Under the pieces are notes generated by a model. It had not been told where the DNA came from, ran no database searches, and worked only from the letters and a program-made list of their open reading frames with translations. A stretch of 47,242 nt of DNA from Thermoplasmata archaeon. GTDB taxonomy: Archaea > Thermoplasmatota > Thermoplasmata > Lutacidiplasmatales > UBA184. Shown one piece after another: positions 234-47,242 of the stretch; the stretch's first letter is position 1; every line of letters starts with the position of its first letter. The translations under genes and the position numbers were made by a program. Where the stretch lies: positions 1 to 47,242 of the forward strand of contig JAKATE010000001.1 of assembly GCA_021828085.1 (NCBI GenBank), read 5' to 3'.

Positions 234-2489
234 ATGCGTAGCGGTCTGGTCCTCCTGGGCGTCGTCCTTCTCGTCGTCGGCGGCGCGCTCCTCGTCTCCC
301 CCGCCCATCCCACCTTCAGCTTCGAGGTCACCGGCGTCCCCGCCGGCTCGACCGGCCCTCAGCCGATCAATCCCTCCCAGGTGGTCGGCTACAGCGCCCC
401 CTACGGCCTCGGGCAGGACGTGGTCTACAACGTGAGCTGGGTGAGCAACGACAACACCACCGTGATGCAGGTCTTCTCCTGCGGAACGGATCCCTCCTGC
501 TCGACCCTGGGACCGCGCCTGGCCGTCCTGGGGGGCGCGTCGAACGGCTTCCAGCTGGACGTGGCCCCGGGGCAGTACTTCTACGTCAACAGCTCGACCC
601 CGCTGACCAGCCCCATCTCCGTCACCGTGACCGGTTACGCCCAGGGGGTCCTCGGCGAGATCGGGCTCTTCCCCTTCGCGGCGGGGGCCTTCCTCGCCCT
701 CGCCGGCTCGGTCACCTACCCGTCCGGGGTCGACGTCCCGGAGGGGCTCAGCCGCAAGCTCGACTACTACCTGGGGGGGATGATCCTGGTGCTGGCCGGC
801 GAAGGGGTCCTCGCCGGCTTCGTGCTCACCCTCCCCCCGCTCACCACCCCGGGCGTCGAGAGCACCTTCGGCTTCGCCCTCGGGTTCATGGCCCTGGGGG
901 GAGCGCTCCTCTTCCACGTCGTGGACGTGATCTACCGCGGACGGGATATCGCGGCCCAGAAGCTGGCGCGCCGGAGCACGCTACCGCGGTGGTTCCGCCG
1001 CTACGTGCTGCGCTGGCTGGTGACGACCGACCACAAGGAGATCGGCCTCCTCTACATCGTCTTCGCCTTCCTCATGTTCTTCGTCGGCGGGACCTACGCG
1101 ATCCTCATCCGGACGGACCTGGGGATCCCGGCCTTCGGGATCTCGGCGAGCCAGATCGGCATCTCCGCGGACATGTACTCCACGCTCTTCACCGAGCACG
1201 GGGTGATCATGATCTTCCTGTTCATCATGCCCCTCATGTCGGGGTTCGGCAACTACCTGCTCCCCACCATGGTCGGGGCGCGGGACATGGCCATGCCCCG
1301 GCTCAACAACTACGCCTTCTGGCTGCTCCCCCCGGCGGCCTTCCTCATCCTCATCTCCAACGCCAACGCGGGCTGGACCGGCTACGTCCCCCTGGCCACC
1401 CTCGAGCCCGGCCACGGCATCGATCTCTGGATCGCGGGGCTCCACATCCTCAGCGTCTCCTCCATCCTCGGCGCCGTCAACTTCATCCTCACGGTGGTGA
1501 AGCACCGCGCCCCGGGCGTGACCTACTGGAACATGCCCATCTTCGTCTGGTCGGTGTTCATCAACAGCTTCCTGGTGCTCGCCGCCATGCCCTCGCTCTC
1601 GGTGGCGCTGAGCATGATCCTCTCCGACCGGAACTTCGGCACGCACTTCACCTACGCGGTGAACGGCTCGCCCCTCGGGGGGCCGCTCATGTACCAGAAC
1701 CTGTTCTGGTTCTTCGGCCATCCCGAGGTCTACATCCTCATCCTCCCGGCCTTCGGTCTCGTCTCCACCGTCCTCCCCAAGATGGTCCGAAGGCACCTCT
1801 TCGGCTACACCGCCATGGCCCTCGCCATCGCCGCCATCGGCATCCTCGGCTTCGTGGTCTGGCAGCACCACATGTTCACCACGGGAGAGGCCACCGACGT
1901 GCGCTTCACCTTCATGCTCACCACCATGGCCATCGCGGTCCCCACCGGGGTGAAGATGTTCAACTGGCTCGGAACCATGTGGGGCGGCCACATCCGCCTG
2001 GAGACCCCCACCTGGTTCATCATCGCCTTCCTGACCATGTTCCTCATCGGAGGGCTCTCCGGCGTGATGCTCGGGAGCATCCCGGTGGACTACCTCGTCC
2101 ACGCCACCTACTTCGTGGTGGCGCACTTCCACTACACCATCCTCGGCGGCACGCTCATGGGCTCCTTCGCCGCCATCTACTTCCTCTACCCGATCATCAC
2201 CCGGCGCTGGTACAACCAGGAGCTCGCCAACTGGCACTTCGTCCTGAGCTACGTCGGGGCGAACATGCTGTTCTTCCCCATGTTCTTCCTCGGCATCGCC
2301 GGGATGCCCCGGCGGGTGTACACCTACCTGCCGTACATCCAGACCCCGGTGGGGCTCAACTTCGCCCAGCTGAACCTGCTCTCCACCATCGGCGCGGGGA
2401 TCTTCGGGATCGCGCAGCTGTTCTTCGTCTTCAACATGGTGATGAGCCGCTACCGCGGTACCCCCGCGGCGGAGGACCCGTGGGCGTGA
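234..2489 (+). CDS. ctaD: heme-copper oxidase subunit I with ~250-aa N-terminal membrane/extracytoplasmic extension
   Basis: From about aa 260 the sequence is canonical CoxI: [84 protein letters not shown] lies just upstream of ATG 234. The first ~250 aa are a signal-anchor helix, a ~120-aa S/T/V-rich domain and three more helices. Confidence 0.9.
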
Positions 2490-36695: not shown

Positions 36696-36716
36696 TTCTA
36701 TAAGAAATCTTATGAA
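36696..36716. promoter_or_regulatory. AT-rich bidirectional promoter element between trpS and the giant surface-protein operon
   Basis: TTCTATAAGAAATCTTATGAA. It sits about 35-50 nt upstream of ATG 36749, which is preceded by GGAG at 36740-36743. It is also about 20-35 nt from GTG 36679 on the other strand. Confidence 0.45.
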
Positions 36717-36748: not shown

Positions 36749-39700
36749 ATGAGGAACCGATGGCTGCGTTGGATCGCCCTGGCCGTGCCGCTCTTGCTGC
36801 TTCCCACCACCCTCCTGCCCCTCGCCTCCCTGGGGCTCGGGACCGCCCTTCCCGGCGCCGGGACGGACCCGGCCGAGCTCGTGCGCGCAGGCACCGACGC
36901 GCCACTCAGCGCGCAGACGGACGTGAACGTGAGCATCGCGCCCCCGTCCTCCGATCTCGAGGCTGGCGCTTCCCTCGCGCTCCAGGCCGAGGTCACGCGC
37001 GTCGACCCCGCGTACAACATCACCATCGAGAGCTACCATTGGAGCCTCAGCAACGCTTCCGGAGGAGCGAGCCTCTCGCCGGCCTACGAGGCCCGCACCA
37101 CACTCTCGACCCTCTCCACGACGCCCGCCTCCAGGCTCCAGGTCGAGCTCACCGTCACCGGCTGGATCGATGACCTCTACTTCACCCCCTTCTCCGACGG
37201 GGCGACGGCCGTCTTCGCCGTCCTGGCCCCGCTGAGCCTCGGGCCGCTCAACGCGACCCCGGATCCCGCCACGCCGCAGGAGGAGGTCCACCTCTCGGTC
37301 CCGATCTCCGGCGGCGCCGCCCCCTACCAGCTCCAATGGTCCTTCGGAGACGGGACCCGGGCGGAGACCACGGCCTCCGGGGCCGGGACGGCGGAGATCT
37401 CGCACCTCTTCGCGGCCGGCACCTTCCTCCCCTCGGTCACGATCACCGACGGGGACGGGCAGAACTCCACGACCAGTTCCTCGAGCTCCGTCGTCGTGGG
37501 GGAGGCGCTCCGGGCGAGCGTCGCCGGGCCGCCCGGAGGGGACGTGGGCGCCCCCCAGGTCTTCCACGCCTCGGTGGCGGGGGGGACCCCGCCGTACTCG
37601 TACCTCTGGACCGACTCGGAGGGCGCCAGCACACCGGGGAACTCGAGCTTCTCCATCGTCCCCGCGCAACCCGGGGTCCTGGGCGTCTCCCTCGAGGTCA
37701 CCGACTCGGCCGGGAACCAGTTCCTGGCCCCCACCTTCGATGTCCAGGTCCGCCCGAGCCCGACCCTTACGCTCCGTTCGTCCCTCCCGGCCGTGGATCT
37801 CGGGGAGGCGCTGCCGGAGCTGATCTCGATCCAGGGGGGAACACCCCCGTACTCTGTCAGCTGGCAGCCCAGCTCGCAGGCGCCAGAGCTGACAGGGACC
37901 TTCGCCGCCCCGGGGAACTACTCCGAGCCGTTCACCCCTTCCAGCCCGGGAGAGGTGACCGCGGTCGCCAACGGGGAGGACGCGGCCGGAGAGGCGTTCG
38001 GGAGCGTCTCGATCGTCGGCCGGGTGTTGCCGGACCCCACCGCCAGCGTGACCGGACCCGCCGGCCCCCTCGTCTCCGGGGAACCCTTCACCCTCGATGC
38101 CCTCCTTTCCGGCGGCGTCGCCCCGTACAGCTGGAGCTGGCAGTTCACCCGGCCGGTCTCCGCGCTGAGCCCGACGGAGGGGTCCTCCACCGCCGCGGGC
38201 CTGGTCTCCTTCCAGGGGGAGAGCCTGGGAACCGGGACCCTCGAGGCGCTCTTCGAGGCCACGGACGCCCAGGGATTCAACTTCTCGGCCACGCTCGGGC
38301 TCAGCGAGGTCCCGCCGCTCTCCGCGAGCTTCCTCCTGCCCCTTCCTCCGGCCGAGCAGGGGGTCCCGCTCCCGCTCTCGCTGGAAGTGACCGGAGGAAC
38401 GCCCCCTTACACGGCGGAGCTCGTGGGCTCGGACGGCTCGAGCGTCTCCGCCTCCCTGCCGGGCCCTGGCTTCTTCCCCCTCCTCTGGACCCCGCGAGGG
38501 GCCGGCCCGGTGGAGCTCCGGACGACCGTCGAGGACACGGCCGGCCGGACGGCCTACGCCAACGCTTCCCTCGTGGTCGCCTCCCCACCCACCCTTTCCC
38601 TCACGCTCCCCCGCGATCCCACGGATGTGGGTCCCTACCCGCTCACCGTCGTGGTCTCGGGCGGCGCCCCTCCCTTCTCCGGCTTCCTCAACGCCTCCTC
38701 CGGCCCGAGCCTCCCGATCTCGGGGTCCGGCCCCTCCTTCCCGCTGGATCTCCTCTGGAGCGCTCCCGGGGAGGTCTACCTCCGTGTCGAACTCACCGAC
38801 GCGCTGGGGGGACGGGCCTACGCGCAGCAGAGCCTCGCGGTCTACCCCCGCCCGACGCCCGCGCTGGTGCTCTCGAGCGACCGGCTGGACGTGGGGGAGC
38901 CCTTCGAGGCCTCGCTCTCGGTGTCCGGGGGCACGGGGAGCTGGCTGAGCTCCCAGGTGAGCTTCGGGGACGGCACTGGGAGCCAGAGCGCCCCCGCCGA
39001 GCACAGCTACTCCGCTCCTGGGAGCTATCTCGTCACGGGTACGGTGGAGGACAGTGCCGGGGCGTGGGCGAACGCGACCCCCGAGACGGTAGAGGTCAAC
39101 GCGGACCCCACCGTCGCTACCGGGCTCCGGCAGCCGGGAGTCGACGCCGGCCTCGCGGCGAGCTTCTCGAGCCAGGTCTCCTTCGGCACGCCCCCGTACA
39201 GCTATCAATGGGGCTTCGGGGATGGCTCCGGGAGCAGCGAGGCCAACCCCACCCACATCTTCAGCTCGCCCGGGCTCTACGAGGTCAGCCTCACCGTCAC
39301 CGACTCGGCCGGGGTGACGGTGGCCGCCCCGACGCTCAACGTCTCGGTGGAGTCACCCCCCCAGCTCTGGATCGGGGCGAACGCCACCTACGAGGAGGTG
39401 GGACAACCGCTCACCCTCTCGGCCCAGCTCATCGGGGGTGCGCTCCCGGAGAGCGTCCTCTGGTCCCTTCCCGGGGGCCGCTCGGCGGGCGGAACCCAGG
39501 TCGGCTGGATCCCCGCCTCCCCCGGCGAGGTCGAAGTGCGCGCCTCCCTGAAGGACGCGGCGGGCGACTACGCCTTCGCCGAGCTCAATCTCACCGTGGC
39601 CCCGGCCCTTTCGCTCGGTCCCGTCCTTCTCCCCTCGCCGGTCCTCGAGTCCGGCCGGAGCTGGGCGCTCCTCGCCAACGTCGCCGGAGGCGCCGGGGGC

Positions 39701-42097
39701 CTCACGTACCTCTGGAACGTGGGGGGCCAGCAGTTCCAGGGGCTCGGTCTCTCGAGCCTCTCCTACGTCCCCGGGACGCCCGGGGAGACCAACGGCTCCC
39801 TCAGCGTCACCGATGAGCTCGGCGCCCGGGTCAGCGCCGCGTTCACCTTCCGGGTCGTCGGGCCCCCGAGCCTGACGCTGAGCTCCCCCCAGGCCCGGCT
39901 CGACGCCGGTGAGGAGGCCACGGTCGTCGCCACGGTCCAGGGGGGCTTCGGGAACCTGAGCTACCGCTGGTCCCTGCCCCCCGGGGCCTCCGGGCTCGGG
40001 AGCGGGGCGGAGGCCTCGCTGACCTTCCCGGCGGCCGGGGACTATCCGGTCGGCGTCACCGTCCTGGACGCGCTGGGGGGACAGGCGAGCGCGCTCCTGG
40101 TCCTCTCCGTCTCCTCCGCGCTGACCGTCTCGCTCCCCGCGGGTGCGCCCGCAGATACCGGCCTCGCGATTCCGATCGTCCCCTCCATCGGAGGGGGGAC
40201 GGGGCCCTTCCAGCTCGACTGGACCCTGCCACCAGGAGCCACGCAGGCCAGCAACGACACCTTCACGTTCGCCACACCGGGGACCTTCTCGGTGGAGGTG
40301 GAGGTCCACGATGCCACGGGGGCCACGGCCTCGGCCCGGGAGAACCTCAGTGTGATGCCGGCTCCCTCGGTCAGCTTCCCGGTCCTCCCGCTCAAGGCCG
40401 CCGCCGGCGTCCCCACCCCTTTCGAGGCCCTGCTGGAGGGAGGCACGTCCCCCTGGAACGCCGACTTCGAGGTGAGCGGGACGGAGAGCTTTCCGGGGGT
40501 GTTCGCCAACGTCACCTTCCCCGATCCAGGGACCTATCCGATGCTCTTCGTGGCCACGGACCTGGCCGGGGCCCGCCTGGTGCGCTCCTGGAACGTCAGC
40601 GTCCTCGCCGACCCGCTGGAACTGGCTGGGAACGTGAGCGAGCCCGCCGGGATCGTCCCGTTCGCTCCAGTGGTCCAGGGCGTGTGGAGCGGCGGGGTGG
40701 GGCCTTTCGAGGGAAGGATCGAGTGGAACGGCACCTTCCTCTCCGGCTGGGAACCGCTCGGGACCACCGGTCCTTGGAACGTCTCCGTTCCCCTCTCGTC
40801 CCCGGGCCCGGTCCGGATCGCCCTCTGGGTCGAGGATTCCCTCGGAGCCGTCGCCGAGCGCTCGTTCCAGCTCGAAGGGCTCGCCTCCCCTCCCGACCCG
40901 GAACTCTCCGCCCCGACGGGCGAGGCCGGCCTCCCGGTCACGGTGAGCGCCGAGTGGCCGAGCCCCTGGATCGCTCCCGGGGAGCGGGTATCCGAGCGCT
41001 GGTGGGGACCCGGCCTCGCCCCCTCCTCGGGGCCTTCGGCCACCTTCCTCGAGAACGCCAGCGGGGTGTACTCTCTCTCGTTCTCCGTCGTCCTCCTGGA
41101 CGAAAGCGGCGCCGCCCTGGAGAACCTCACCTTCCGGGCCCTCCTCCGCGTCGAGCCCGGGCCCCCCGTGGCGCTCGTGCCGGCCGGGGACCCCTCGGCA
41201 GGGTACGCCGGGGAGAACCTCTCGCTCCTCTTCGCCAGTGTCGACTCCTGGGGGAACGTGAACACCTCCGCGGGGGGGAACGTGACCCTCACCCCCTCAG
41301 GGGCCGGTTCCGTCGGGGTAGGGGACCTCTCCGGTGGCTACGTCCGCTTCCCGGTGAGCTCCACCTCCGCGGGGAACGTGAGCTACGCGGTCTCCGCCCC
41401 CGGCCTCCAGGGCACGAGCGTTGCGATCCTCTGGACGGCCGACGCGATGAGGGGGACGATCCGTGTCCTCTCGTGGAGCCGGGAAGGCTCCTCGCTCTGG
41501 CTCAACCTGAGCGTCGTCGACGTCTTCGGGAACCCGCTCTCCGGCTACCCCGTCGAGGCGAGCGCACCGGGGCTCCCGACCGTGGGCGGGACCGCCGAGG
41601 GCGGGACGCTCTCGCTCCTCCTCCCCGGGGCGGCCTCCGTGGGGGAGGTGACCCTCACCGGGCAGCACGGGGCCTCGACCACCCTGGAGCTACCGGGTCC
41701 GGCGACCCCCGAGGGGGGCTGGGTGGAGAACGCGCTCCTCGCCCTCTTCCTCGGGGGGGTCCTCGGCGCCGCGCTCTTCTTCCGGGTGCGCTCCTGGCGG
41801 CGCCGTCGCCGCCCCCCGGAGGACCGGACTCCTGACCCGCTCCTCGAGGCCGTCGAGGAGTCGCCCGGTGAGGAGGTCGGGGCCCTGGGGGAGATCGCCC
41901 GTCTCCGCGGCTGGAGCGGGAACGATGTGGAGGGAGGGCTCTCCGCCCTTGAGCGCGCCGGCCAGGTCCACCGCGAGCCCGACGGGGCCGGGGGTACGCG
42001 CTACTACCCGGGACCGGCGCCGACCCCTGGAGAGCCGGCCACGACCGATCCCCCGGCCCCCGGGGAGGAAGCCCGGACGGAGGCGGAGCATGCGTGA
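36749..42097 (+). CDS. giant (1782-aa) secreted PKD/Ig-like repeat surface protein with C-terminal transmembrane anchor and ~100-aa cytoplasmic tail
   Basis: Signal peptide MRNRWLRWIALAVPLLLLPTTLLPLASLG. At least 14 hand-counted copies of a GG-x-x-P-Y/F-x-x-x-W motif about 85-100 aa apart, three with the PKD-type FGDG (WSFGDG, VSFGDG, WGFGDG). 30 hand-counted N-x-S/T sequons. Big-like domains near the end (SVDSWGNV, VVDVFGNP). TM helix ALLALFLGGVLGAALFF at 41732-41782, then RRRRR. Confidence 0.85.
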   Translation: MRNRWLRWIALAVPLLLLPTTLLPLASLGLGTALPGAGTDPAELVRAGTDAPLSAQTDVNVSIAPPSSDLEAGASLALQAEVTRVDPAYNITIESYHWSLSNASGGASLSPAYEARTTLSTLSTTPASRLQVELTVTGWIDDLYFTPFSDGATAVFAVLAPLSLGPLNATPDPATPQEEVHLSVPISGGAAPYQLQWSFGDGTRAETTASGAGTAEISHLFAAGTFLPSVTITDGDGQNSTTSSSSSVVVGEALRASVAGPPGGDVGAPQVFHASVAGGTPPYSYLWTDSEGASTPGNSSFSIVPAQPGVLGVSLEVTDSAGNQFLAPTFDVQVRPSPTLTLRSSLPAVDLGEALPELISIQGGTPPYSVSWQPSSQAPELTGTFAAPGNYSEPFTPSSPGEVTAVANGEDAAGEAFGSVSIVGRVLPDPTASVTGPAGPLVSGEPFTLDALLSGGVAPYSWSWQFTRPVSALSPTEGSSTAAGLVSFQGESLGTGTLEALFEATDAQGFNFSATLGLSEVPPLSASFLLPLPPAEQGVPLPLSLEVTGGTPPYTAELVGSDGSSVSASLPGPGFFPLLWTPRGAGPVELRTTVEDTAGRTAYANASLVVASPPTLSLTLPRDPTDVGPYPLTVVVSGGAPPFSGFLNASSGPSLPISGSGPSFPLDLLWSAPGEVYLRVELTDALGGRAYAQQSLAVYPRPTPALVLSSDRLDVGEPFEASLSVSGGTGSWLSSQVSFGDGTGSQSAPAEHSYSAPGSYLVTGTVEDSAGAWANATPETVEVNADPTVATGLRQPGVDAGLAASFSSQVSFGTPPYSYQWGFGDGSGSSEANPTHIFSSPGLYEVSLTVTDSAGVTVAAPTLNVSVESPPQLWIGANATYEEVGQPLTLSAQLIGGALPESVLWSLPGGRSAGGTQVGWIPASPGEVEVRASLKDAAGDYAFAELNLTVAPALSLGPVLLPSPVLESGRSWALLANVAGGAGGLTYLWNVGGQQFQGLGLSSLSYVPGTPGETNGSLSVTDELGARVSAAFTFRVVGPPSLTLSSPQARLDAGEEATVVATVQGGFGNLSYRWSLPPGASGLGSGAEASLTFPAAGDYPVGVTVLDALGGQASALLVLSVSSALTVSLPAGAPADTGLAIPIVPSIGGGTGPFQLDWTLPPGATQASNDTFTFATPGTFSVEVEVHDATGATASARENLSVMPAPSVSFPVLPLKAAAGVPTPFEALLEGGTSPWNADFEVSGTESFPGVFANVTFPDPGTYPMLFVATDLAGARLVRSWNVSVLADPLELAGNVSEPAGIVPFAPVVQGVWSGGVGPFEGRIEWNGTFLSGWEPLGTTGPWNVSVPLSSPGPVRIALWVEDSLGAVAERSFQLEGLASPPDPELSAPTGEAGLPVTVSAEWPSPWIAPGERVSERWWGPGLAPSSGPSATFLENASGVYSLSFSVVLLDESGAALENLTFRALLRVEPGPPVALVPAGDPSAGYAGENLSLLFASVDSWGNVNTSAGGNVTLTPSGAGSVGVGDLSGGYVRFPVSSTSAGNVSYAVSAPGLQGTSVAILWTADAMRGTIRVLSWSREGSSLWLNLSVVDVFGNPLSGYPVEASAPGLPTVGGTAEGGTLSLLLPGAASVGEVTLTGQHGASTTLELPGPATPEGGWVENALLALFLGGVLGAALFFRVRSWRRRRRPPEDRTPDPLLEAVEESPGEEVGALGEIARLRGWSGNDVEGGLSALERAGQVHREPDGAGGTRYYPGPAPTPGEPATTDPPAPGEEARTEAEHA

Positions 42098-42500
42098 GCA
42101 GGCCCCGGTCTCCCGGGTCGCACTCGCCACCCTCCTCATCGCCGGTCTGTTCCTCGCGGGCCTCTCGATCGGGGGCGCGCCCCGGGAGACCCCTCCCGCG
42201 CGCCCCTCCGCGGGCGGGCTCGCTGCCGTGCATCCGGAGCTCGTCCACCCGTCGGACAACGCCACGGGCAACCTCACCGCCGCGCTCAACCGGGTCCTCT
42301 TCCTCACCGGGCTCGTCTCCGGCGCGGTGGTGACCCTCGTCTGGGTCCGCGTGGCGCTGAGCTGGTTCTCGCACGACCCGACGCGCAAGGTGCAGGCGAA
42401 GGAGCGCGCGCGCGACGCGCTGCTCGGCAGCCTGGTCCTCCTCGCGGCCGTCACGGGACTCGCCTGGGGGCTCGCCCACTGGGTCCTCACGGGGGTCTGA
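42090..42500 (+). CDS. VirB2/TrbC-like pilin candidate (signal peptide + two-helix hairpin)
   Basis: ATG 42090 overlaps the upstream stop by 8 nt. Signal peptide VALATLLIAGLFLAGLSIGGAP. Helix 1 LTAALNRVLFLTGLVSGAVVTLVWVRVALSWF, basic loop SHDPTRKVQAKERARD, helix 2 ALLGSLVLLAAVTGLAWGLAHWVLTGV. Assignment rests on topology and context only. Confidence 0.6.
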   Translation: MREQAPVSRVALATLLIAGLFLAGLSIGGAPRETPPARPSAGGLAAVHPELVHPSDNATGNLTAALNRVLFLTGLVSGAVVTLVWVRVALSWFSHDPTRKVQAKERARDALLGSLVLLAAVTGLAWGLAHWVLTGV

Positions 42501-42511
42501 GCGGGGAGCTC

Positions 42512-43672
42512 ATGGGGATCGGGGCGCTGGTCAAGGCGGTCCTCTTCGCCCTCTTCGGCGCGCTCTCCGCCGCGGTCTCGCTCGCGGTCGAGCCGACCTA
42601 CGACCGGCTCTTCGTCCCGGAGATGAGCCCGTCAGCGCTCTTCGCCCCCTGGACCGGGGGCGGTCTCTTCGGCGGGGCCGTCCGCATGAGCTCCTTCCTC
42701 CTCGTCAACGTCGTCGACCCGTTCGCCGTCCTGGTCATCGCGGGCGTGGGGGTGCTCTACCTCGCCCGGGCCAGCCTCCCCTCGCTCGCGGGAAGGCTCC
42801 AGGACCTGGGTCCCCGTCTCCTCCTCGGGATCCTCATCGCCAACCTCGCGGTCCCCCTCGCCCAGGTCATCTTCCTCCTCGGCGCCGCGGTCTACCCGGT
42901 CTTCTACGCCTACCAGGGAGGGGCCTGGCAGAGCTACGCCAACCTCGTCGGGCCGGCCGGGCTCAGCGTCGCCTGGGACAACGGGCTGCTCGCGCTCATC
43001 GGGGCCCTGGCGCTGCTCGGGATGACGCTCCTCCTCGCCTTCCTCGTCGCCTTCCGGGACGCCCTCCTCGCGGTCCTCCTCGTCCTGTTGCCGATCTTCA
43101 CGCTCTTCTGGCCCTGGCCGTTCGCCTCCTCGCTCGCCTCCCGCGGTTGGAAGCTCTTCGTCGAGATGACCTTCCTGCCGTGCTTCCTGGTGGTCCCCCT
43201 GGCCCTCGCCGTCGGGTCCCAGAGCGTGCTCATCGTCCTCGCCCTCTTCGGTCTCGCCCTGGGCATGCCGAGCCTCCTCTCCCTCGGAGGGCGGGGACTC
43301 GGAGCCCTGGGCTCCCCCTCCCCCGCCGGGTTCGTGGCGGCCGGGCTCGGGCGAGGTCCGGGGATGGGGGTGGATTCAGTGGGGGGAGTGGCCCAGCACG
43401 GCACCCGTTCCTTCCGGTCCTCCCTCCCCCGCGGGGGTGCTGGAGCACGTCCCACGGCCCCCTGGCCCTCCGCCGCGCTGGGGCCGGCCTCGGCCGTGGT
43501 CTGGGGGATCGGGGAAGGCGTGGGCAAGCTGGCCCATCATCTGGGGAGCGCCGCGAACCGGCATCTCGGGCACGGCGGCGGGGGCTCCGGAGCGTCTCCC
43601 GCGATGAGGACGCGCCCCCCCTCCGCGCTGCGGGACGTCCCGGGAGCGGCCCGAGGGCGTCCCGTGGCATGA
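42512..43672 (+). CDS. polytopic (~7 helix) membrane protein, VirB6/TrbL/CedA-like candidate, with G/P/R/A-rich C-terminal tail
   Basis: ATG lies 11 nt after the previous stop, with GGGGAG upstream. About seven hydrophobic helices in the first ~270 aa. The last ~110 aa are low complexity. Confidence 0.6.
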   Translation: MGIGALVKAVLFALFGALSAAVSLAVEPTYDRLFVPEMSPSALFAPWTGGGLFGGAVRMSSFLLVNVVDPFAVLVIAGVGVLYLARASLPSLAGRLQDLGPRLLLGILIANLAVPLAQVIFLLGAAVYPVFYAYQGGAWQSYANLVGPAGLSVAWDNGLLALIGALALLGMTLLLAFLVAFRDALLAVLLVLLPIFTLFWPWPFASSLASRGWKLFVEMTFLPCFLVVPLALAVGSQSVLIVLALFGLALGMPSLLSLGGRGLGALGSPSPAGFVAAGLGRGPGMGVDSVGGVAQHGTRSFRSSLPRGGAGARPTAPWPSAALGPASAVVWGIGEGVGKLAHHLGSAANRHLGHGGGGSGASPAMRTRPPSALRDVPGAARGRPVA

Positions 43673-43678
43673 ACGGAG

Positions 43679-44488
43679 ATGTCCCGGGCGCTGGAGGTGC
43701 CCTTGCCGGAACGGCAGGGGCACCGGATGCTGATGGGTCCCTTCCAGGGGCCCACCGAGCTCCTCCGCGCCCTCCTCGGAGCCGGCGCCGGGCTCCTCCT
43801 TGCGCTCGCGGTGGGCCCGATCGAGGGCCTGCTACTGGCCGCTGCGTTCCTCGGGCTCAACCTGGTCCGCTGGAGGGACGAACCTCTCTGGGACCTCCTG
43901 CGCGATGCGCTCGCCTACCAGCTGCGTCAGGCGCTGACCTCGAGCCGCGCCCCACCCGCGGCGCTCGGCATCGACACCGACCTCCTGGTCGACCCGGAGG
44001 GAGGACGCTGGGCCGCCTGGGAGGCCCCCCTGCTCCCCGTCTCGGGCCACGACGTGAGGGACCTCTTCGCCGAGGCGCAGCGGCTCCTGGCCGCGCTTCC
44101 CGCGGGATGGGGGGAGGTCTTCCTGGCCCGCCGCGCCGTCCCCTGGACGGCCGTTCTCCCCTCCGGTCCTCCACGCCCCGCCGCCGAGCGGCTCGCGTGG
44201 GAAGGTTACCGGACGCTGCTGCGCGAGCTCACGCGGAACTGCTACCGCCACCGGCTGTTCGTGCTCGTGCCCGCCCGGTCCCTGGCACCCCCCAAGGACC
44301 CGGACGGGCCGGCGCCCTTCCATCCACCGGCGGGTTTCACCCGGGTCCGCGGCGCGGAACTTCGGGTCGTCGCTCGCTGGGACGAACCCATCGTATCCCC
44401 CGAGCCCGTCCGTCTCCCCCCTTCGCACCTGCCCTCGCCTCCCCCGGGAACCCGTTCGGGCCGTGGACCGGCTACGCTACCGCGGTAG
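43679..44488 (+). CDS. membrane-anchored protein, VirB3-like N-terminal hairpin plus soluble domain
   Basis: ATG lies 6 nt after the previous stop. LLRALLGAGAGLLLALAVGPIEGLLLAAAFLGLNLVRW is a helical hairpin. The soluble part (GIDTDLLVDPEGGRWAAWEAPLLPVSGHDVRDLFAEAQRLLAALPAGWGEVFL) resembles VirB4 N-domain-style sequence. The last ~25 codons are P/S/R low complexity. Confidence 0.5.
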   Translation: MSRALEVPLPERQGHRMLMGPFQGPTELLRALLGAGAGLLLALAVGPIEGLLLAAAFLGLNLVRWRDEPLWDLLRDALAYQLRQALTSSRAPPAALGIDTDLLVDPEGGRWAAWEAPLLPVSGHDVRDLFAEAQRLLAALPAGWGEVFLARRAVPWTAVLPSGPPRPAAERLAWEGYRTLLRELTRNCYRHRLFVLVPARSLAPPKDPDGPAPFHPPAGFTRVRGAELRVVARWDEPIVSPEPVRLPPSHLPSPPPGTRSGRGPATLPR

Positions 44489-44802
44489 CCCTCCTTTCCG
44501 GGGCGCTCGGCTTCTACGGCGTCGCCGAAGGGACGACCCCCTCGCTCGTCCTCCTCGTCTGGGTCCTCCTCGTGGCCCGGATGGGGAACTCGCCTCCGGC
44601 GGGACTGCCGAGCGGGGGGAAGTACGGGGGGGCCCGCTGGGCCCCCGCGGTCGCGGCCGGGCTTCTCGGGGCTACACTGTACCTCGACCCGGCCCTTCCG
44701 CTGGGGGAGGGGGCGCGCACCCTTCTCCTCGCCTGCGTCTCCGCCGGCCTCGCTTGGGCGCTCGCCCCCCGGGGGTCCTTCCACGCCGGGGAGGGGGGCT
44801 GA
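44461..44802 (+). CDS. small multi-helix membrane protein; 5' boundary undefined (no canonical start before first helix)
   Basis: Frame 1 reads PWTGYATAVALLSGALGFYGVAEGTTPSLVLLVWVLLVARMG...WAPAVAAGLLGATLYL...ARTLLLACVSAGLAWALAP with 3-4 helices. The first in-frame ATG/GTG/TTG is GTG 44572. The stop TGA 44800-44802 shares its A with the next ATG. Confidence 0.45.
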   Translation, partial: PWTGYATAVALLSGALGFYGVAEGTTPSLVLLVWVLLVARMGNSPPAGLPSGGKYGGARWAPAVAAGLLGATLYLDPALPLGEGARTLLLACVSAGLAWALAPRGSFHAGEGG

Positions 44803-46493
44803 TGCCCGGCTCGCCGCCGTCGAGGGGGGAGACGCCGGAAGGGGTGATCGCGGCGGACGGCCTGACCTACCTGCGCCTCTTCCGGCGTTTTCCCACCCGG
44901 GCTTCGGTGCCCGGCTTCCCGGCCCTCGGGCGGACGGACGCCCCGCTCGAGTCGGTCCTGCGTCTGCGCGGGATCCCTCCCGCCGAGGCGCTCCGCCAGG
45001 TCCGCGAGGACCTCGCCCATCTCGAGGCGGACCTCCGCGGCCTCCGGGACCGTTCCGATCCTCGCCGGGCAACGCTGGAGCCGCAGCTCGAGGGGGCTGA
45101 GCGGCTCGAGCACGGGCTCGTGCGACGCCAGACCCGCCTCTGGGAGGTGCTCTGGGGGCTCCGGGAGTCCTCCCGACGGGGCAGGCCTTCCACCCTCGCC
45201 GGGACCCAGGGAGCCTTGGAGTCCGAGGGGGCCCGCTTCTGGAACTCCCGCTGGAGGAGCGCACCCTTCCGCGAGGCCCTCCGCCCGGGGGGGCGGACAC
45301 GGCCGGAGTGGTTCCACCGGCTCGACGAGGAGGGGCTGGCCGCGCTCCTCCCGCTCTGGGAGGACCGCGCGACGGAGCTCGAGGGTGTGCTGCTGGGGAT
45401 GCACGCCGAGAACGGGACCCCGGTCTTCCTCGACCGCTTCCGGCACCCGCACCACTCCTCCGCCATCCTCGGGGAGACCGGCAGCGGCAAGAGCTATGCG
45501 AGCGCGCTCGGGCTCCTGCGTGCGCGCTGGGCGCACCCGGACCTCAGCGTCTTCGTCCTCGACCCGCTGGGCGGCCTGGCACGCTTCGTGGGTCTCCTCG
45601 GAGGGCATGTGGTGGTTCCCGGCCGGGGGGCCCTTCCGATCAACCCGCTCGATCCGGCCACCTCCGGCGGGGATGTGCGCCGGAAGATCGCGACGGTCTC
45701 GGTGATGCTCCGTGCGCTCTACCCCTCGCTGCACGATGAGGAGGCGGCCGTGCTCGACGTGGCACTCGAGGAGCTCTACCGGCGGTCAGGGGACCGCTCC
45801 CCGCAGCTGGGAGACCTCCTCACGTCGCTTAGGCAGCGGCTCCCGGCCGACCACCGGTTGCTCGCCCTCCTCCAGACCGCGGTCACGGGCTCCCTTGCCG
45901 GGCTCGACGGTCCGACACGATGGGACCTCGGGGGACCGCTCTGGGGCTTCGACCTCTCCCGGATCACGCCGGCCGAGCTCCCCTTCCTCCTCGTGCTCCT
46001 GCTCGACTTCATCGAGGGGGAGCTCCGGGGGCGGGAGGGGCCGAAGCTGCTCATCATCGACGAGGTCCACTACCTCTTCCGCTCCTCCGCCACCGCCGGT
46101 TACCTCGACCAGCTCGTCCGCCACGTCCGTCACTTCCGCACCGGTGTCGAGCTGCTCAGCCAGAGCCCCAACGACCTCACTGGGTCCGCGGCGGGGCGCG
46201 CCATCCTGGCCAACCTGGATTCCCTGCTCCTGCTCCGATTGAGGGAAGGAGGGCGCTCGCTCGGGGCGATCTACCCGCTGGCCGAGGAGGAGCGCGCAAG
46301 CCTTCGAGCGGCGCCGCTCCCCCGGGACCAGGGGTATTCGGGGGGACTGCTGCTTACCGGGGGTCGCCACTTGCCGGTCGCCATTCTCGCCTCTCCCGCC
46401 GAGGATGCCCTCCTTCGGGCGGGCTTCGACCGGGAGGGGAGCGAGCTCGCGGAAAACTCCGAGGGGAGCCGAGCGGGCGTGTCGGACCCGTGA
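44802..46493 (+). CDS. VirB4/TrbE/CedB-type conjugation ATPase
   Basis: GETGSGKS (Walker A, 45471-45494), FVLDPLGG, LPINPLDP, LLIIDEVHYLF (Walker B, 46047-46070), ELLSQSPNDL. The N-terminal domain has GLTYLRLFRRFPTRASVPGF...ESVLRLRGIPPAEA, typical of VirB4-like proteins. Confidence 0.8.
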   Translation: MPGSPPSRGETPEGVIAADGLTYLRLFRRFPTRASVPGFPALGRTDAPLESVLRLRGIPPAEALRQVREDLAHLEADLRGLRDRSDPRRATLEPQLEGAERLEHGLVRRQTRLWEVLWGLRESSRRGRPSTLAGTQGALESEGARFWNSRWRSAPFREALRPGGRTRPEWFHRLDEEGLAALLPLWEDRATELEGVLLGMHAENGTPVFLDRFRHPHHSSAILGETGSGKSYASALGLLRARWAHPDLSVFVLDPLGGLARFVGLLGGHVVVPGRGALPINPLDPATSGGDVRRKIATVSVMLRALYPSLHDEEAAVLDVALEELYRRSGDRSPQLGDLLTSLRQRLPADHRLLALLQTAVTGSLAGLDGPTRWDLGGPLWGFDLSRITPAELPFLLVLLLDFIEGELRGREGPKLLIIDEVHYLFRSSATAGYLDQLVRHVRHFRTGVELLSQSPNDLTGSAAGRAILANLDSLLLLRLREGGRSLGAIYPLAEEERASLRAAPLPRDQGYSGGLLLTGGRHLPVAILASPAEDALLRAGFDREGSELAENSEGSRAGVSDP

Positions 46494-46516
46494 CCGGTTC
46501 CGGTGCAGCGCCGGGC

Positions 46517-46524
46517 TTTATGTA
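46517..46524 (+). promoter_or_regulatory. TATA-like box for 46550 gene
   Basis: TTTATGTA, 26-33 nt upstream of ATG 46550. Confidence 0.4.
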
Positions 46525-46549
46525 GGGCCAAACGGAAATCGTCCGACAC

Positions 46550-47017
46550 ATGTCCGACGTTTCTCCCTCCTCCCCGCCGCGCGCACGTCCGACCCCCTGG
46601 TCCGTCCGGAAGATCGTCGAGCAGGTGACGGGCCAGCCTCTCAGCGCGGTGCAGGGGAACGGGCCGGCACCCCCCCTCCGCGGGAGGTCGCCGGGGGAGC
46701 CTCGCCTGGGCCTGCCGGCCTTCCTGCCCGGCGGCCTCGGTGAGGACGCCCCCGCTTCCCTCCCCCTCCCCCATCCTCTCCATTTCGGCCCGCTCGGCGA
46801 CGAGCAGAGTGGGGAGCGCGCGCTCCCCCATGGGGAGGGGCACCGGGCCGGGGGGGACCGCCCCGCCTCCAAGGGACCCCGCTCCGGCGCCCTCGAGCTC
46901 GAGCGCGTCTACCTCCACTATCTGCTCCTCCACCTGGACCGGCTCGGCGAGCCCGCGCTCAAGTACCTGCGGCATGCCGTGGAAGAGGAGTGCCGGGACC
47001 GGGGCTGGGAGCCCTAG
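46550..47017 (+). CDS. hypothetical protein
   Basis: 155-aa ORF with G/C-rich third positions, its own promoter-like box, and a helical C-terminus (LELERVYLHYLLLHLDRLGEPALKYLRHAVEEECRDRGW). No motif recognised. Confidence 0.45.
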   Translation: MSDVSPSSPPRARPTPWSVRKIVEQVTGQPLSAVQGNGPAPPLRGRSPGEPRLGLPAFLPGGLGEDAPASLPLPHPLHFGPLGDEQSGERALPHGEGHRAGGDRPASKGPRSGALELERVYLHYLLLHLDRLGEPALKYLRHAVEEECRDRGWEP

Positions 47018-47026
47018 AGGACCGCT

Positions 47027-47242
47027 CTACCTTCCCGCCGCCGTGGCGGAGGGCGGGGAAGACTGTGGGGGAACGTACCGGAGCAGGAGCACGCCCTCCA
47101 CGGCCGCCCAGAGGAGCACGGGGGCGAGGATGAGCCGTTCCATCCCCCCTACCTGGAGCGGACCGTAGGTTCCCGCGGCGAAGAGTCCGACGGCCACGAG
47201 ACCGACGGCACCGGAGAGGACGGAGTAGATCTCCAGATCGGA
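47027..47242 (-). CDS. membrane protein, C-terminal fragment (5' end outside window)
   Basis: The - strand frame is open from the window edge to TAG (47029-47027). Translation SDLEIYSVLSGAVGLVAVGLFAAGTYGPLQVGGMERLILAPVLLWAAVEGVLLLRYVPP shows two hydrophobic helices. Not in the ORF track. Confidence 0.45.
   Translation of the reverse strand, partial: SDLEIYSVLSGAVGLVAVGLFAAGTYGPLQVGGMERLILAPVLLWAAVEGVLLLRYVPPQSSPPSATAAGR

What the first reader, a model, noticed from the sequence alone, without database searches (positions are those of the whole stretch)
36749..46493. Chromosomal VirB2/VirB6/VirB3/VirB4-like (Ced/Ted-type) pilus gene cluster translationally coupled to a 1782-aa PKD-repeat surface protein
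Seen: six consecutive same-strand genes have coupling-type junctions. The giant-gene stop 42095-42097 is overlapped by the next ATG 42090. Gaps of 11 nt (42500 to 42512) and 6 nt (43672 to 43679) follow. Gene 43679..44488 overlaps the next coding frame, and TGA 44800-44802 shares its A with ATG 44802. The products read as follows. (i) A secreted, C-terminally anchored PKD/Ig-repeat giant. (ii) A 136-aa protein with a signal peptide plus two long hydrophobic helices split by a short basic loop. (iii) A ~7-helix polytopic protein. (iv) A helical-hairpin protein with a soluble domain. (v) A small multi-helix protein. (vi) A 563-aa ATPase with GETGSGKS, VLDPLGG, INPLDP, LLIIDEVH and SQSPNDL. Established: bacterial conjugative T4SS cores, and the archaeal Ced (Sulfolobales) and Ted (Thermoproteales) DNA-import machines, are built from a VirB2-like pilin, polytopic and small membrane proteins and a VirB4-like ATPase. 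Inference: this is a related pilus or DNA-transfer machine in a different, very GC-rich archaeon. Its operonic fusion to a giant adhesin-like protein is not part of the described Ced/Ted loci as far as I know. No relaxase, VirD4/TraG, integrase or tRNA/att repeat is visible, and the upstream flank is core chromosome (trpS, glnA). It therefore looks host-encoded rather than ICE- or plasmid-borne.
Basis: partly seen in the sequence, partly recalled or inferred. Interest (0 to 1): 0.9.

Follow-up and report, generated by a model that had tools for sequence, protein, structure and literature searches.

The report
Chromosomal conjugation-like pilus machine in Thermoplasmata
A soil archaeon (class Thermoplasmata) carries, as a fixed part of its chromosome, a stripped-down relative of the bacterial conjugation machine, always paired with a surface adhesin whose tail inside the cell looks like a DNA-binding domain; this is a third, undescribed family of such archaeal machines after Ced and Ted.

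Summary
Seven same-strand, tightly packed genes (36749-47017) follow the only AT-rich promoter-like island in the region.

- **ATPase:** it is VirB4-type (PDB VirB4 E 3e-34, HerA 4e-8).
- **136-aa protein:** it is a signal-peptide helical hairpin. Its distant relatives pass Pfam's T4SS_pilin threshold.
- **386-aa protein:** the model's five best PDB matches are all VirB6 of plasmid R388 (probability 0.99, E 0.07).
- **VirB3 assignment:** weak.
- **Mobile-element genes:** no coupling protein, relaxase, integrase or tRNA was found in the cluster or its flanks.

The cluster is conserved in more than 20 Thermoplasmata genomes, on contigs up to 2 Mb. It sits at two fixed chromosomal sites and co-diverges with neighbouring housekeeping genes.

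Two findings are new.

- The adhesin is family-wide, about 500-760 aa in most genomes and about 1800 aa only in this clade. It always ends in a membrane anchor plus a cytoplasmic winged-helix domain.
- Homologous clusters in cultured Aciduliprofundum boonei are multi-copy and lie near a weak integrase match. A more distant relative of unknown organism also carries a coupling protein. Both suggest domestication from a mobile element.

It is not a sequence member of Ced or Ted. DNA exchange is inferred, not shown.

The parts
36696..36716 (.). AT-rich island (TTCTATAAGAAATCTTATGAA) between divergent trpS and the adhesin gene; candidate archaeal TATA/promoter region for the whole unit
   Evidence: One of only 10 islands with at least 8 of 10 A/T in the 47-kb window. 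None lies inside 36749-47242. Its promoter function is inferred.
36749..42097 (+). 1782-aa surface protein: signal peptide, many PKD/Ig-like repeats (30 N-glycosylation sequons), membrane anchor, cytoplasmic tail
   Evidence: Pfam PKD and PKD_4 score E about 1e-47. Hydrophobic segments lie at aa 9-27 and 1662-1680. Orthologues sit directly upstream of the pilin gene in nearly all loci. They are 490-760 aa in most and about 1800 aa in the window clade.
41723..41788 (+). Membrane anchor of the surface protein (aa ~1659-1680), followed by RVRSWRRRRRP stop-transfer stretch
41834..42016 (+). Cytoplasmic winged-helix-like domain of the surface protein (aa ~1696-1756)
   Evidence: The domain is conserved in 17 orthologues. 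Pfam hits are DUF5817_CT in 10 of 17 (best 1.8e-5), Rrf2 in 9 of 17, plus GntR, TrmB, MarR and HTH_24. The PDB profile search hits the CodY and Lrp winged helices at 0.003-0.005. The same tail is present in low-GC relatives L034 and L036.
42090..42500 (+). 136-aa VirB2-type pilin precursor: signal peptide, NAT/NLT sequons, two long hydrophobic helices joined by a short basic loop
   Evidence: The AF2 model has pLDDT 76 with helices H7-26, H58-92 and H97-134. The family has more than 885 clusters with a near-invariant hairpin. Distant relatives hit PF18895 T4SS_pilin in 9 of 10 cases, four above the cut-off.
42512..43672 (+). 386-aa polytopic membrane protein, VirB6-like, with disordered C-terminal tail
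   Evidence: Seven hydrophobic segments. AF2 pLDDT is 68. The top five Foldseek PDB matches are all TrwI/VirB6 of R388; the best is 7o3v_F with probability 0.99, E 0.069 and TM 0.33/0.43. No sequence-level match was found.
43679..44488 (+). 269-aa protein: conserved N-terminal motif (LPE..R.L.LGPF), membrane segment, cytoplasmic domain; occupies the VirB3 position
   Evidence: 15 orthologues align. One of 15 has a weak PrgI (VirB3-like) hit at 0.0023, and one has TraC_F_IV at 0.15. The A. boonei-type counterpart scores hhalign probability 95.5.
44458..44802 (+). Small multi-pass membrane protein (gene v); coding stretch shown from its first helix to TGA 44800-44802; true start unresolved
   Evidence: There is no canonical start between 44197 and 44572. 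Positions 44461-44580 are 118/120 identical to L029, and a 3-nt indel keeps the frame. Orthologues of 119-148 aa are present in relatives.
44802..46493 (+). 563-aa VirB4-family ATPase (Walker A GETGSGKS, Walker B LLIIDEVH)
   Evidence: about 100 homologues at E below 1e-68, all from Thermoplasmata/Euryarchaeota MAGs.
46550..47017 (+). 155-aa soluble protein with conserved N-terminal (RRR.SWS.K.IVE.V.G.P) and C-terminal (PER.YLHYLLLH.DRL) motifs; seventh conserved member of the unit
   Evidence: It lies downstream of the ATPase in most loci. It has no Pfam or PDB match.

Best explanation
This is a host-encoded, minimal type IV secretion (conjugation-type) machine of a Thermoplasmata archaeon. 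It probably descends from an archaeal mobile element and is now fixed in the chromosome.

**Proposed mechanism**
- One transcript is made from the AT-rich promoter region at about 36.7 kb.
- The pilin precursor and the adhesin enter the membrane through Sec.
- The VirB4 ATPase docks on the membrane through the 269-aa and small membrane proteins. It sits on a VirB6-like channel.
- The ATPase extracts pilin from the membrane to build a conjugative-type pilus or short conduit.
- The PKD-repeat adhesin holds partner cells together. Its cytoplasmic winged helix links that contact to DNA or to regulation of the operon.

**Most likely cargo.** The cargo is most likely chromosomal DNA exchanged between cells of the same kind, as in Ced and Ted, because the machine lacks a coupling protein and a relaxase.

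**Shown and inferred**
- Shown: the identity of the ATPase and the pilin, the synteny, the chromosomal fixation, and the adhesin-anchor-winged-helix architecture.
- Inferred: pilus formation, the single transcript, DNA as cargo, its direction, and the role of the winged helix.

The confidence given is for 'host-fixed T4SS-derived pilus/translocation machine'. For DNA exchange specifically I would give about 0.45.
For: **Components**
- The ATPase is VirB4 family.
- The pilin links to Pfam T4SS_pilin through intermediates found with the family profile at E 1e-19 to 1e-7 in 1.84 billion proteins. It models as a hairpin.
- The polytopic protein's best structural matches are VirB6.

**Organisation**
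- Start and stop codons overlap or lie 6-11 nt apart.
- There is no internal AT-rich island.

**Chromosomal fixation**
- The same seven genes occur in more than 20 genomes.
- In 20 genomes they lie between fibrillarin and OMP decarboxylase. In the window clade they lie next to trpS.
- Contigs reach 2.0 Mb.
- ATPase and VirB6-like identities co-vary with flanking genes (r 0.6-0.7) at least as well as housekeeping genes co-vary with each other (0.45-0.49).
- No T4CP, relaxase or integrase lies in or beside the cluster, and none lies beyond the window edge.

**Likely mobile origin**
- Homologous clusters in Aciduliprofundum boonei are multi-copy and lie about 7 kb from a weak Phage_integrase match.
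- A more distant relative of unknown organism (L034) carries VirD4 and an integrase.
Against: - There is no experimental evidence: no transcript, no filament, no DNA-transfer data.
- The VirB6 match has E 0.07 and TM 0.33-0.43. The VirB3 assignment rests on position plus one weak hit.
- Foldseek could not tell the pilin hairpin from any other helical hairpin.
- The pilin hairpin is more conserved (50-73% identity) than the ATPase (40-52%). From memory, that is unusual for an exposed pilus subunit and could mean a membrane-embedded role.
- Chromosomal T4SSs of Patescibacteria also lack relaxases and are thought to serve host attachment or uptake rather than conjugation (PMC12102498). Loss of the relaxase therefore does not by itself mean DNA import.
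- A VirD4-like gene elsewhere in the genome cannot be excluded from a 47-kb window.
Confidence: 0.8

Rival explanations
1. The machine builds a pilus or conduit for cell-cell attachment or for exchange of proteins or nutrients, not for DNA. This would resemble the chromosomal T4SS of Patescibacteria.
For: The components are the same as in the best explanation. There is no relaxase or coupling protein. An adhesin is an obligatory partner. Patescibacterial chromosomal T4SSs with VirB2-like pilins and no relaxase are linked to an epibiotic lifestyle (PMC12102498).
Against: - The adhesin carries a cytoplasmic winged helix of DNA-binding type.
- A DNA methyltransferase gene lies convergently next to the cluster in 20 genomes and in A. 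boonei.
- The characterised archaeal chromosomal relatives, Ced and Ted, import DNA (PMC9905601).
- From memory, these archaea are free-living heterotrophs rather than epibionts. The genome size of about 2.1 Mb is from PMC9287336.
Confidence: 0.3
2. The cluster is part of an integrated conjugative element or a decaying remnant of one, not a host function.
For: Homologous clusters in A. boonei are present in at least three near-identical copies. They lie near a weak integrase match and an 849-aa methyltransferase. L034 has an integrase, VirD4 and a weak relaxase-like hit.
Against: - In the high-GC lineage there is no integrase, T4CP, replication gene or tRNA.
- GC content equals that of the flanks.
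- The insertion point is identical between housekeeping genes in 20 species, and the cluster co-diverges with them.
- All genes are intact, and the ATPase catalytic residues are invariant.
Confidence: 0.07
3. The ATPase is a HerA/FtsK-type DNA pump, and the membrane proteins are unrelated to type IV secretion.
For: The only Pfam hit above the cut-off is DUF87 (HerA central domain), at 25.7 bits against a cut-off of 23.2. There are weak PADLOC mad8 and HerA hits.
Against: VirB4 models and the VirB4 structure score many orders of magnitude better. The neighbouring pilin belongs to a T4SS pilin family, and the polytopic protein resembles VirB6.
Confidence: 0.03
4. The five small genes are a dedicated export or anchoring system for the giant adhesin.
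For: The adhesin gene is always first, and its stop overlaps the start of the pilin gene.
Against: The adhesin has its own Sec-type signal peptide and a stop-transfer anchor, so it needs no special exporter. The same machine accompanies adhesins from 490 to 2183 aa with different domain types: PKD, Big_7, Big_13 and beta-helix.
Confidence: 0.05

Closest known systems
Ted system of Thermoproteales (TedA/TedB/TedC) and Ced system of Sulfolobales (CedA/CedA1/CedA2/CedB), PMC9905601
   Same: - It is chromosomal, not on a plasmid.
- It is reduced to a VirB2-like pilin, a VirB6-like polytopic protein and a VirB4-like ATPase.
- It has no relaxase and no coupling protein.
- The pilin has a cleavable-looking Sec signal peptide, as reported for TedC.
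   Different: - No sequence membership was found. No Ced model was hit except a weak, partial CedD match, and no solved pilin chain matched.
- It occurs in a different phylum (Thermoplasmatota).
- It has extra conserved partners that, as far as I could find, are not reported for Ced or Ted. These are an Ig/PKD adhesin with a cytoplasmic winged helix, a 269-aa and a small membrane protein, and a 155-aa soluble protein.
- None of the ParA, Rad50 or HerA genes described near Ted was seen among the genes I annotated.
Monoderm-type conjugation systems (MPF-FATA class: VirB4 of the CD1110 / PrgJ type, PrgI = VirB3, PrgH = VirB6)
   Same: The ATPase's best family models and best solved structure are from this class. 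The gene order (small membrane proteins, then the ATPase) is similar. An adhesin is part of the system, as PrgB is in pCF10 (from memory).
   Different: There is no relaxase, coupling protein, VirB8-like protein or cell-wall hydrolase. A VirB2-type pilin is present, which PMC12102498 reports as absent from MPF-FATA. The adhesin is membrane-anchored and has a cytoplasmic domain.
Chromosomal T4SS of Patescibacteria (PMC12102498)
   Same: It is chromosomal, widespread in one lineage and mostly without a relaxase. It has PF18895/VirB2-like pilins next to virB4, sometimes in arrays. Relatives L036 and L038 also carry pilin arrays.
   Different: It is archaeal. No adhesin was detected in the Patescibacteria survey, whereas here the adhesin is obligatory.
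VirB4 gene cluster noted in Thermoplasmatales genomes (arCOG04034 with arCOG05340 and arCOG05369; Cuniculiplasma, PMC5155288)
   Same: It is a chromosomal cluster in Thermoplasmata made of a VirB4 component plus multipass membrane proteins. The paper mentions it in one sentence without analysis.
   Different: I could not test orthology with the present cluster, because no Thermoplasmatales sequence appeared among the hits. That paper names no pilin, adhesin or winged helix.

Membership tests
Type IV secretion / conjugation-type machine (VirB4-based) | VirB4-family ATPase with intact Walker motifs | tested here: met
   NCBIfam VirB4 families score 1.7e-25, 1.6e-16 and 5.5e-10, all below the equivalog cut-offs. 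PDB VirB4 4ag5 scores E 3.3e-34 over 350 residues, against HerA at 4e-8. Walker A and B residues are invariant.
Type IV secretion / conjugation-type machine (VirB4-based) | VirB2-type pilin: signal peptide plus two hydrophobic helices with a basic loop | tested here: met
   The AF2 model is a hairpin. Relatives found with the family profile hit PF18895 T4SS_pilin in 9 of 10 cases, four above the 26.6-bit cut-off. The window protein itself does not reach the Pfam model.
Type IV secretion / conjugation-type machine (VirB4-based) | VirB6-type polytopic channel protein | tested here: inconclusive
   The top five Foldseek matches are R388 VirB6 chains, with probability up to 0.99 but E 0.07-0.4 and TM 0.25-0.43. 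There is no sequence match. Some homologues carry a precomputed PF19590 label that I could not reproduce or name.
Type IV secretion / conjugation-type machine (VirB4-based) | VirB3-type small membrane protein next to VirB4 | tested here: inconclusive
   Position and topology fit. Only one of 15 orthologues hits PrgI, at 0.0023. Comparison with R388 VirB3 and Pfam scans of low-GC relatives gave nothing.
Self-transmissible conjugative element (plasmid or ICE) | Coupling protein (VirD4/TraG), relaxase, integrase or replication genes, attachment site | tested here: not met
   None lies in the cluster or among the flanking genes scanned. The window has no tRNA. None lies beyond the right edge in 94%-identical contigs. 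The chromosomal site is fixed and the cluster co-diverges with its flanks. The rest of the genome is not visible.
Ced system (Sulfolobales) | Proteins of the CedA, CedA1, CedA2 and CedB families | tested here: not met
   The NCBIfam scan of six proteins gave only a partial CedD match, 3.3e-5 over about 60 residues of the ATPase. I do not know whether models for the other Ced proteins are in that library.
Ced system (Sulfolobales) | Imports DNA between cells after DNA damage | not testable with these tools
   This needs genetics and expression data.
Ted system (Thermoproteales) | TedC, TedA and TedB families; neighbouring ParA, Rad50 and HerA genes | tested here: not met
   Two pilin profiles found no solved pilin chain by sequence. 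None of ParA, Rad50 or HerA was found among the cluster and flanking genes scanned. No Ted profile was available. Ced and Ted themselves share no recognisable sequence similarity (PMC9905601).

The most novel reading that the evidence does not exclude
The adhesin is a transmembrane coupling receptor that stands in for the missing coupling protein and relaxase. Its Ig/PKD ectodomain recognises a partner cell of the same kind. Its membrane-tethered cytoplasmic winged helix binds DNA, or the ATPase, at the base of the VirB6 channel. Cell contact is thereby wired directly to the choice of DNA substrate, or to switching on the operon. The neighbouring, conserved DNA methyltransferase would then mark DNA as self. 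This would be a previously unknown way of gating DNA exchange in archaea, conserved from mobile elements of Aciduliprofundum to the fixed chromosomal machine of soil Thermoplasmata.
Probability: 0.15. Interest if true: 0.85.

Novelty: new variant of a known kind. Interest (0 to 1): 0.72.

Why it matters
Chromosomal, domesticated conjugation machines are so far described in archaea only for two orders of hyperthermophilic Thermoproteota (Ced and Ted).

- **Wider distribution.** A third, sequence-unrelated family would show that domestication of conjugation machinery happened repeatedly. It is fixed in a large group of mesophilic, acid-soil Thermoplasmata, so such machines may drive gene exchange in abundant uncultured soil archaea.
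- **Evolutionary series.** The family runs from mobile-element-like copies in cultured Aciduliprofundum boonei to fixed chromosomal copies.
- **New component.** The surface adhesin with a cytoplasmic winged helix gives a concrete, testable handle on how partner recognition and cargo choice are coupled.

Tried and rejected
- **Foldseek of the pilin model against PDB.** It returned only generic helical hairpins, with nothing at E of 0.001 or better, so it says nothing either way.
- **Profile searches of PDB sequences.** The pilin (two profiles), the VirB6-like protein, the 269-aa protein and the 155-aa protein gave no meaningful hit.
- **hhalign against single R388 sequences.** Family profiles compared with TrwL/VirB2, TrwM/VirB3 and TrwI/VirB6 gave probabilities below 1%. 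A single sequence is too weak a target, so this is not evidence against homology.
- **Pilin against the VirB6-like N-terminus.** This tested the relation reported for CedA1 and CedA. The probability was 5%, so it is rejected here.
- **PF19590 label.** Some VirB6-like homologues carry it as a precomputed label, but fresh Pfam scans could not reproduce it, so I do not use it.
- **PADLOC defence models.** Only weak P-loop matches appeared.
- **Plasmid collection.** The nearest plasmid-borne ATPases are haloarchaeal megaplasmid proteins at about 24% identity, in differently built clusters.
- **NCBIfam 'PamR' hit of the adhesin.** It is explained by shared Ig-like repeats and scores far below the cut-off (72 against 300 bits).
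- **Literature.** Seven searches found no description of this cluster. There is only a one-sentence arCOG mention for Thermoplasmatales.

Full report

Yes. The window is about 72% G+C throughout and has no tRNA gene. On the + strand the ORFs are 36749-42097 (1782 aa), 42090-42500 (136 aa), 42512-43672 (386 aa), 43679-44488 (269 aa), a frame open to TGA 44800-44802, and 44802-46493 (563 aa).

The junctions are as described:
- ATGCGTGA at 42090-42097.
- Gaps of 11 and 6 nt.
- TGATG at 44800-44804.

Two corrections are needed:
- Gene (v) has no ATG, GTG or TTG between 44197 and 44572, although its first membrane helix is encoded at about 44458-44570.
- A seventh gene, 46550-47017, belongs to the unit.

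In the whole 47-kb window only ten islands have at least 8 of 10 A/T. One sits at 36696-36716, between divergent trpS and the first gene, and none lies inside 36749-47242. This fits one promoter and one long transcript, which is an inference.

**2. Whose genome is it?**

All close homologues of the ATPase, the pilin and the polytopic protein come from MAGs labelled Thermoplasmata or Euryarchaeota archaeon. The high G+C and the cytochrome oxidase gene at 234-2489 match the published description of the soil order Lutacidiplasmatales: about 69% GC, about 2.1 Mb and aerobic (PMC9287336). That assignment is an inference.

**3. What are the parts?**

*ATPase.*
- The best NCBIfam models are VirB4 families: CD1110 1.7e-25, Mycoplasma ICE VirB4 1.6e-16, TIGR00929 5.5e-10 and TraC 4.5e-8. 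All are below the equivalog cut-offs.
- A 17-sequence profile hits the Thermoanaerobacter VirB4 structure 4ag5 at E 3.3e-34 over about 350 residues. HerA-type helicases reach only 4e-8 to 1e-3.
- The Walker A and B residues are invariant.

*Pilin.*
- The 136-aa protein belongs to a family of more than 885 clusters.
- The architecture is a signal peptide, a variable linker, conserved N-x-T sequons, and two hydrophobic helices joined by a short basic loop.
- AlphaFold2 gives helices 7-26, 58-92 and 97-134 with pLDDT 76.
- A profile search of 1.84 billion representative proteins found only 35 members.
- Of ten distant members scanned, nine hit Pfam PF18895 'Type IV secretion system pilin'. Four exceed its 26.6-bit cut-off. 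This is the profile used for VirB2 in the Patescibacteria survey (PMC12102498).
- Homology to T4SS pilins therefore rests on intermediates, not on the window protein alone.

*Polytopic protein.*
- It has seven hydrophobic segments.
- The AF2 model (pLDDT 68) has as its five best PDB matches the TrwI/VirB6 chains of the R388 machine. The best has probability 0.99, E 0.069 and TM 0.33/0.43.
- This is supportive but not conclusive. No sequence-level link was found.

*269-aa protein.*
- It has a conserved N-terminal motif, a membrane segment and a cytoplasmic domain.
- One orthologue weakly matches PrgI, the VirB3 of monoderm systems (0.0023). Another weakly matches the N-domain of TraC (0.15).
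- The VirB3 label remains a guess based on position.

*Gene (v) and the 155-aa protein.* Both have no recognisable relatives outside the family.

**4. The adhesin is the surprise.**

tblastn shows a PKD-type protein directly upstream of the pilin gene in nearly every locus. It is 490-760 aa in most genomes and about 1800 aa only in the window's clade. The giant size is therefore a local expansion, while the partnership itself is ancestral.

All of these proteins end the same way: a membrane anchor, a basic stretch and a conserved cytoplasmic module of about 60 aa.
- That module matches winged-helix families: DUF5817_CT in 10 of 17 (best 1.8e-5), Rrf2 in 9 of 17, plus GntR, TrmB, MarR and HTH_24.
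- It also matches the winged helices of CodY and Lrp in the PDB at 0.003-0.005.
- The same tail is found on the 743-aa Big-domain protein of L036 and the 2183-aa beta-helix/Ig giant of L034. Both loci have about 43% GC.
- A surface Ig-repeat protein with a cytoplasmic winged helix is thus a hallmark of this whole family of machines.

**5. Host gene or mobile element?**

In the high-GC lineage the evidence points to a host gene.
- The cluster lies between SSB/trpS and cell-envelope genes in the window, L001, L005 and L029-L032.
- In 20 other species-level genomes it lies at one site: DUF885-RidA-fibrillarin | cluster | N6_N4 methyltransferase-OMP decarboxylase-truA.
- Contigs reach 0.8-2.0 Mb.
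- No integrase, coupling protein or relaxase is present, also beyond the window's right edge.
- Across 14 genomes, pairwise identities of the ATPase and the VirB6-like protein correlate with those of flanking housekeeping genes (r 0.6-0.7). That is at least as good as housekeeping genes correlate with each other (0.45-0.49).

Relatives look mobile.
- The L036 cluster is homologous gene by gene: ATPase hhalign probability 100 (E 3e-55), VirB6-like 98.7, and 269-aa-like 95.5.
- The L036 ATPase is in one 90%-identity cluster with three proteins of cultured Aciduliprofundum boonei T469.
- In A. boonei the cluster lies next to an 849-aa methyltransferase and about 7 kb from a weak integrase match.
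- L034, of unknown organism, adds a VirD4-type coupling protein (1.5e-36), an integrase and a weak relaxase-like hit.
- The simplest reading is domestication of an archaeal conjugative element. The coupling protein and integrase were lost, while the pilus core, the adhesin and often the methyltransferase were kept.

**6. How it most likely works.**

See the best explanation. The steps from 'T4SS-derived membrane machine' to 'pilus' and then to 'DNA exchange' rest on analogy with bacterial VirB4/VirB2 biology and with Ced and Ted (PMC9905601). They are inferences.

The main rival is a non-DNA contact or uptake role, as proposed for Patescibacteria (PMC12102498). The winged helix and the linked methyltransferase tilt the balance towards DNA, but only mildly.

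**7. Comparison with what is known.**

The system works like Ced and Ted: it is chromosomal, minimal, and lacks a relaxase and a coupling protein. It is not a sequence member of either.

Its ATPase is nearest to the monoderm MPF-FATA class. The nearest plasmid-borne ATPases are about 24% identical and sit in differently built clusters.

Seven literature searches found no description of the cluster. The only mention is one sentence on a VirB4/arCOG cluster in Thermoplasmatales (PMC5155288), whose orthology I could not test.

**8. Verdict.**

It is a new variant of a known kind of system: a third family of domesticated archaeal conjugation-type machines. It has one new component, the adhesin with a cytoplasmic winged helix, and cultured A. 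boonei carries a homologous cluster for experiments. Function remains untested.

Noticed in passing
window 44197-44802: Gene (v) has no canonical start codon upstream of its first membrane helix, and gene callers also skip it in 94%-identical contigs. The stretch is nevertheless under coding-like constraint: 118/120 identical to L029, with a frame-keeping 3-nt indel. Its frame is -1 relative to the 269-aa gene. Candidate explanations are a near-cognate start (CTG 44377 or ATC 44395), a frameshift fusion, or a short form from GTG 44572.
   Followed up: partly
L003-L025 (e.g. L004 12208-12972, - strand); L038 11857-14406; L039 4631-7180: An N6_N4 DNA methyltransferase gene lies convergently just downstream of the cluster in 20 high-GC Thermoplasmata genomes. 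A larger one (849 aa) holds the same position in Aciduliprofundum boonei. None is present in the window. It may be linked to DNA transfer, for example by marking self DNA or protecting it from restriction.
   Followed up: partly
L036 7985-9981; proteins P0359, P0362-P0365, P0368, P0369, P0371: Some relatives encode pilins of 260-340 aa. In these, a beta-rich N-terminal domain and a Gly/Trp-rich linker are fused in front of the hairpin. They occur in arrays next to an ordinary pilin and could be pilus-decorating or tip subunits.
   Followed up: no
window 42261-42500 and orthologues (alignment A4): The pilin hairpin is the most conserved part of the system. It has 27 invariant positions in 39 sequences and is 50-73% identical where the ATPase is 40-52%. 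From memory, that is unusual for an exposed pilus subunit.
   Followed up: partly
Aciduliprofundum boonei T469 (P0388, P0389, P0390; loci L038, L039): A cultured archaeon carries at least three ATPase copies at 90% identity or more, from a cluster homologous to this one. The copies lie about 7 kb from a weak integrase match and near HTH regulators.
   Followed up: partly
L034 1-12058: A distant pilin relative of unknown organism (GC 0.42) sits in a mobile-element-like block. The block holds an integrase, a 2183-aa beta-helix/Ig giant with the same anchor and winged-helix tail, the pilin, a 209-aa protein with weak relaxase-like hits, and a VirD4-type coupling protein.
   Followed up: partly
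window 46550-47017 and orthologues (alignment A9): The 155-aa soluble protein has strongly conserved motifs (RRR.SWS.K.IVE.V.G.P, YDPV..YPP, PER.YLHYLLLH.DRL) and no known relatives. In L001 it lies about 7 kb away from the cluster.
   Followed up: partly
window 234-2489: The cytochrome oxidase subunit I domain starts only at residue 270 of a 751-aa ORF. This suggests an N-terminal extension or a fusion with another subunit.
   Followed up: no
window 12004-36716: Only ten short AT-rich islands exist in 47 kb of 72% GC sequence. The one checked (36696-36716) lies in the intergenic gap between trpS and the first gene of the cluster. They may mark archaeal promoters.
   Followed up: no
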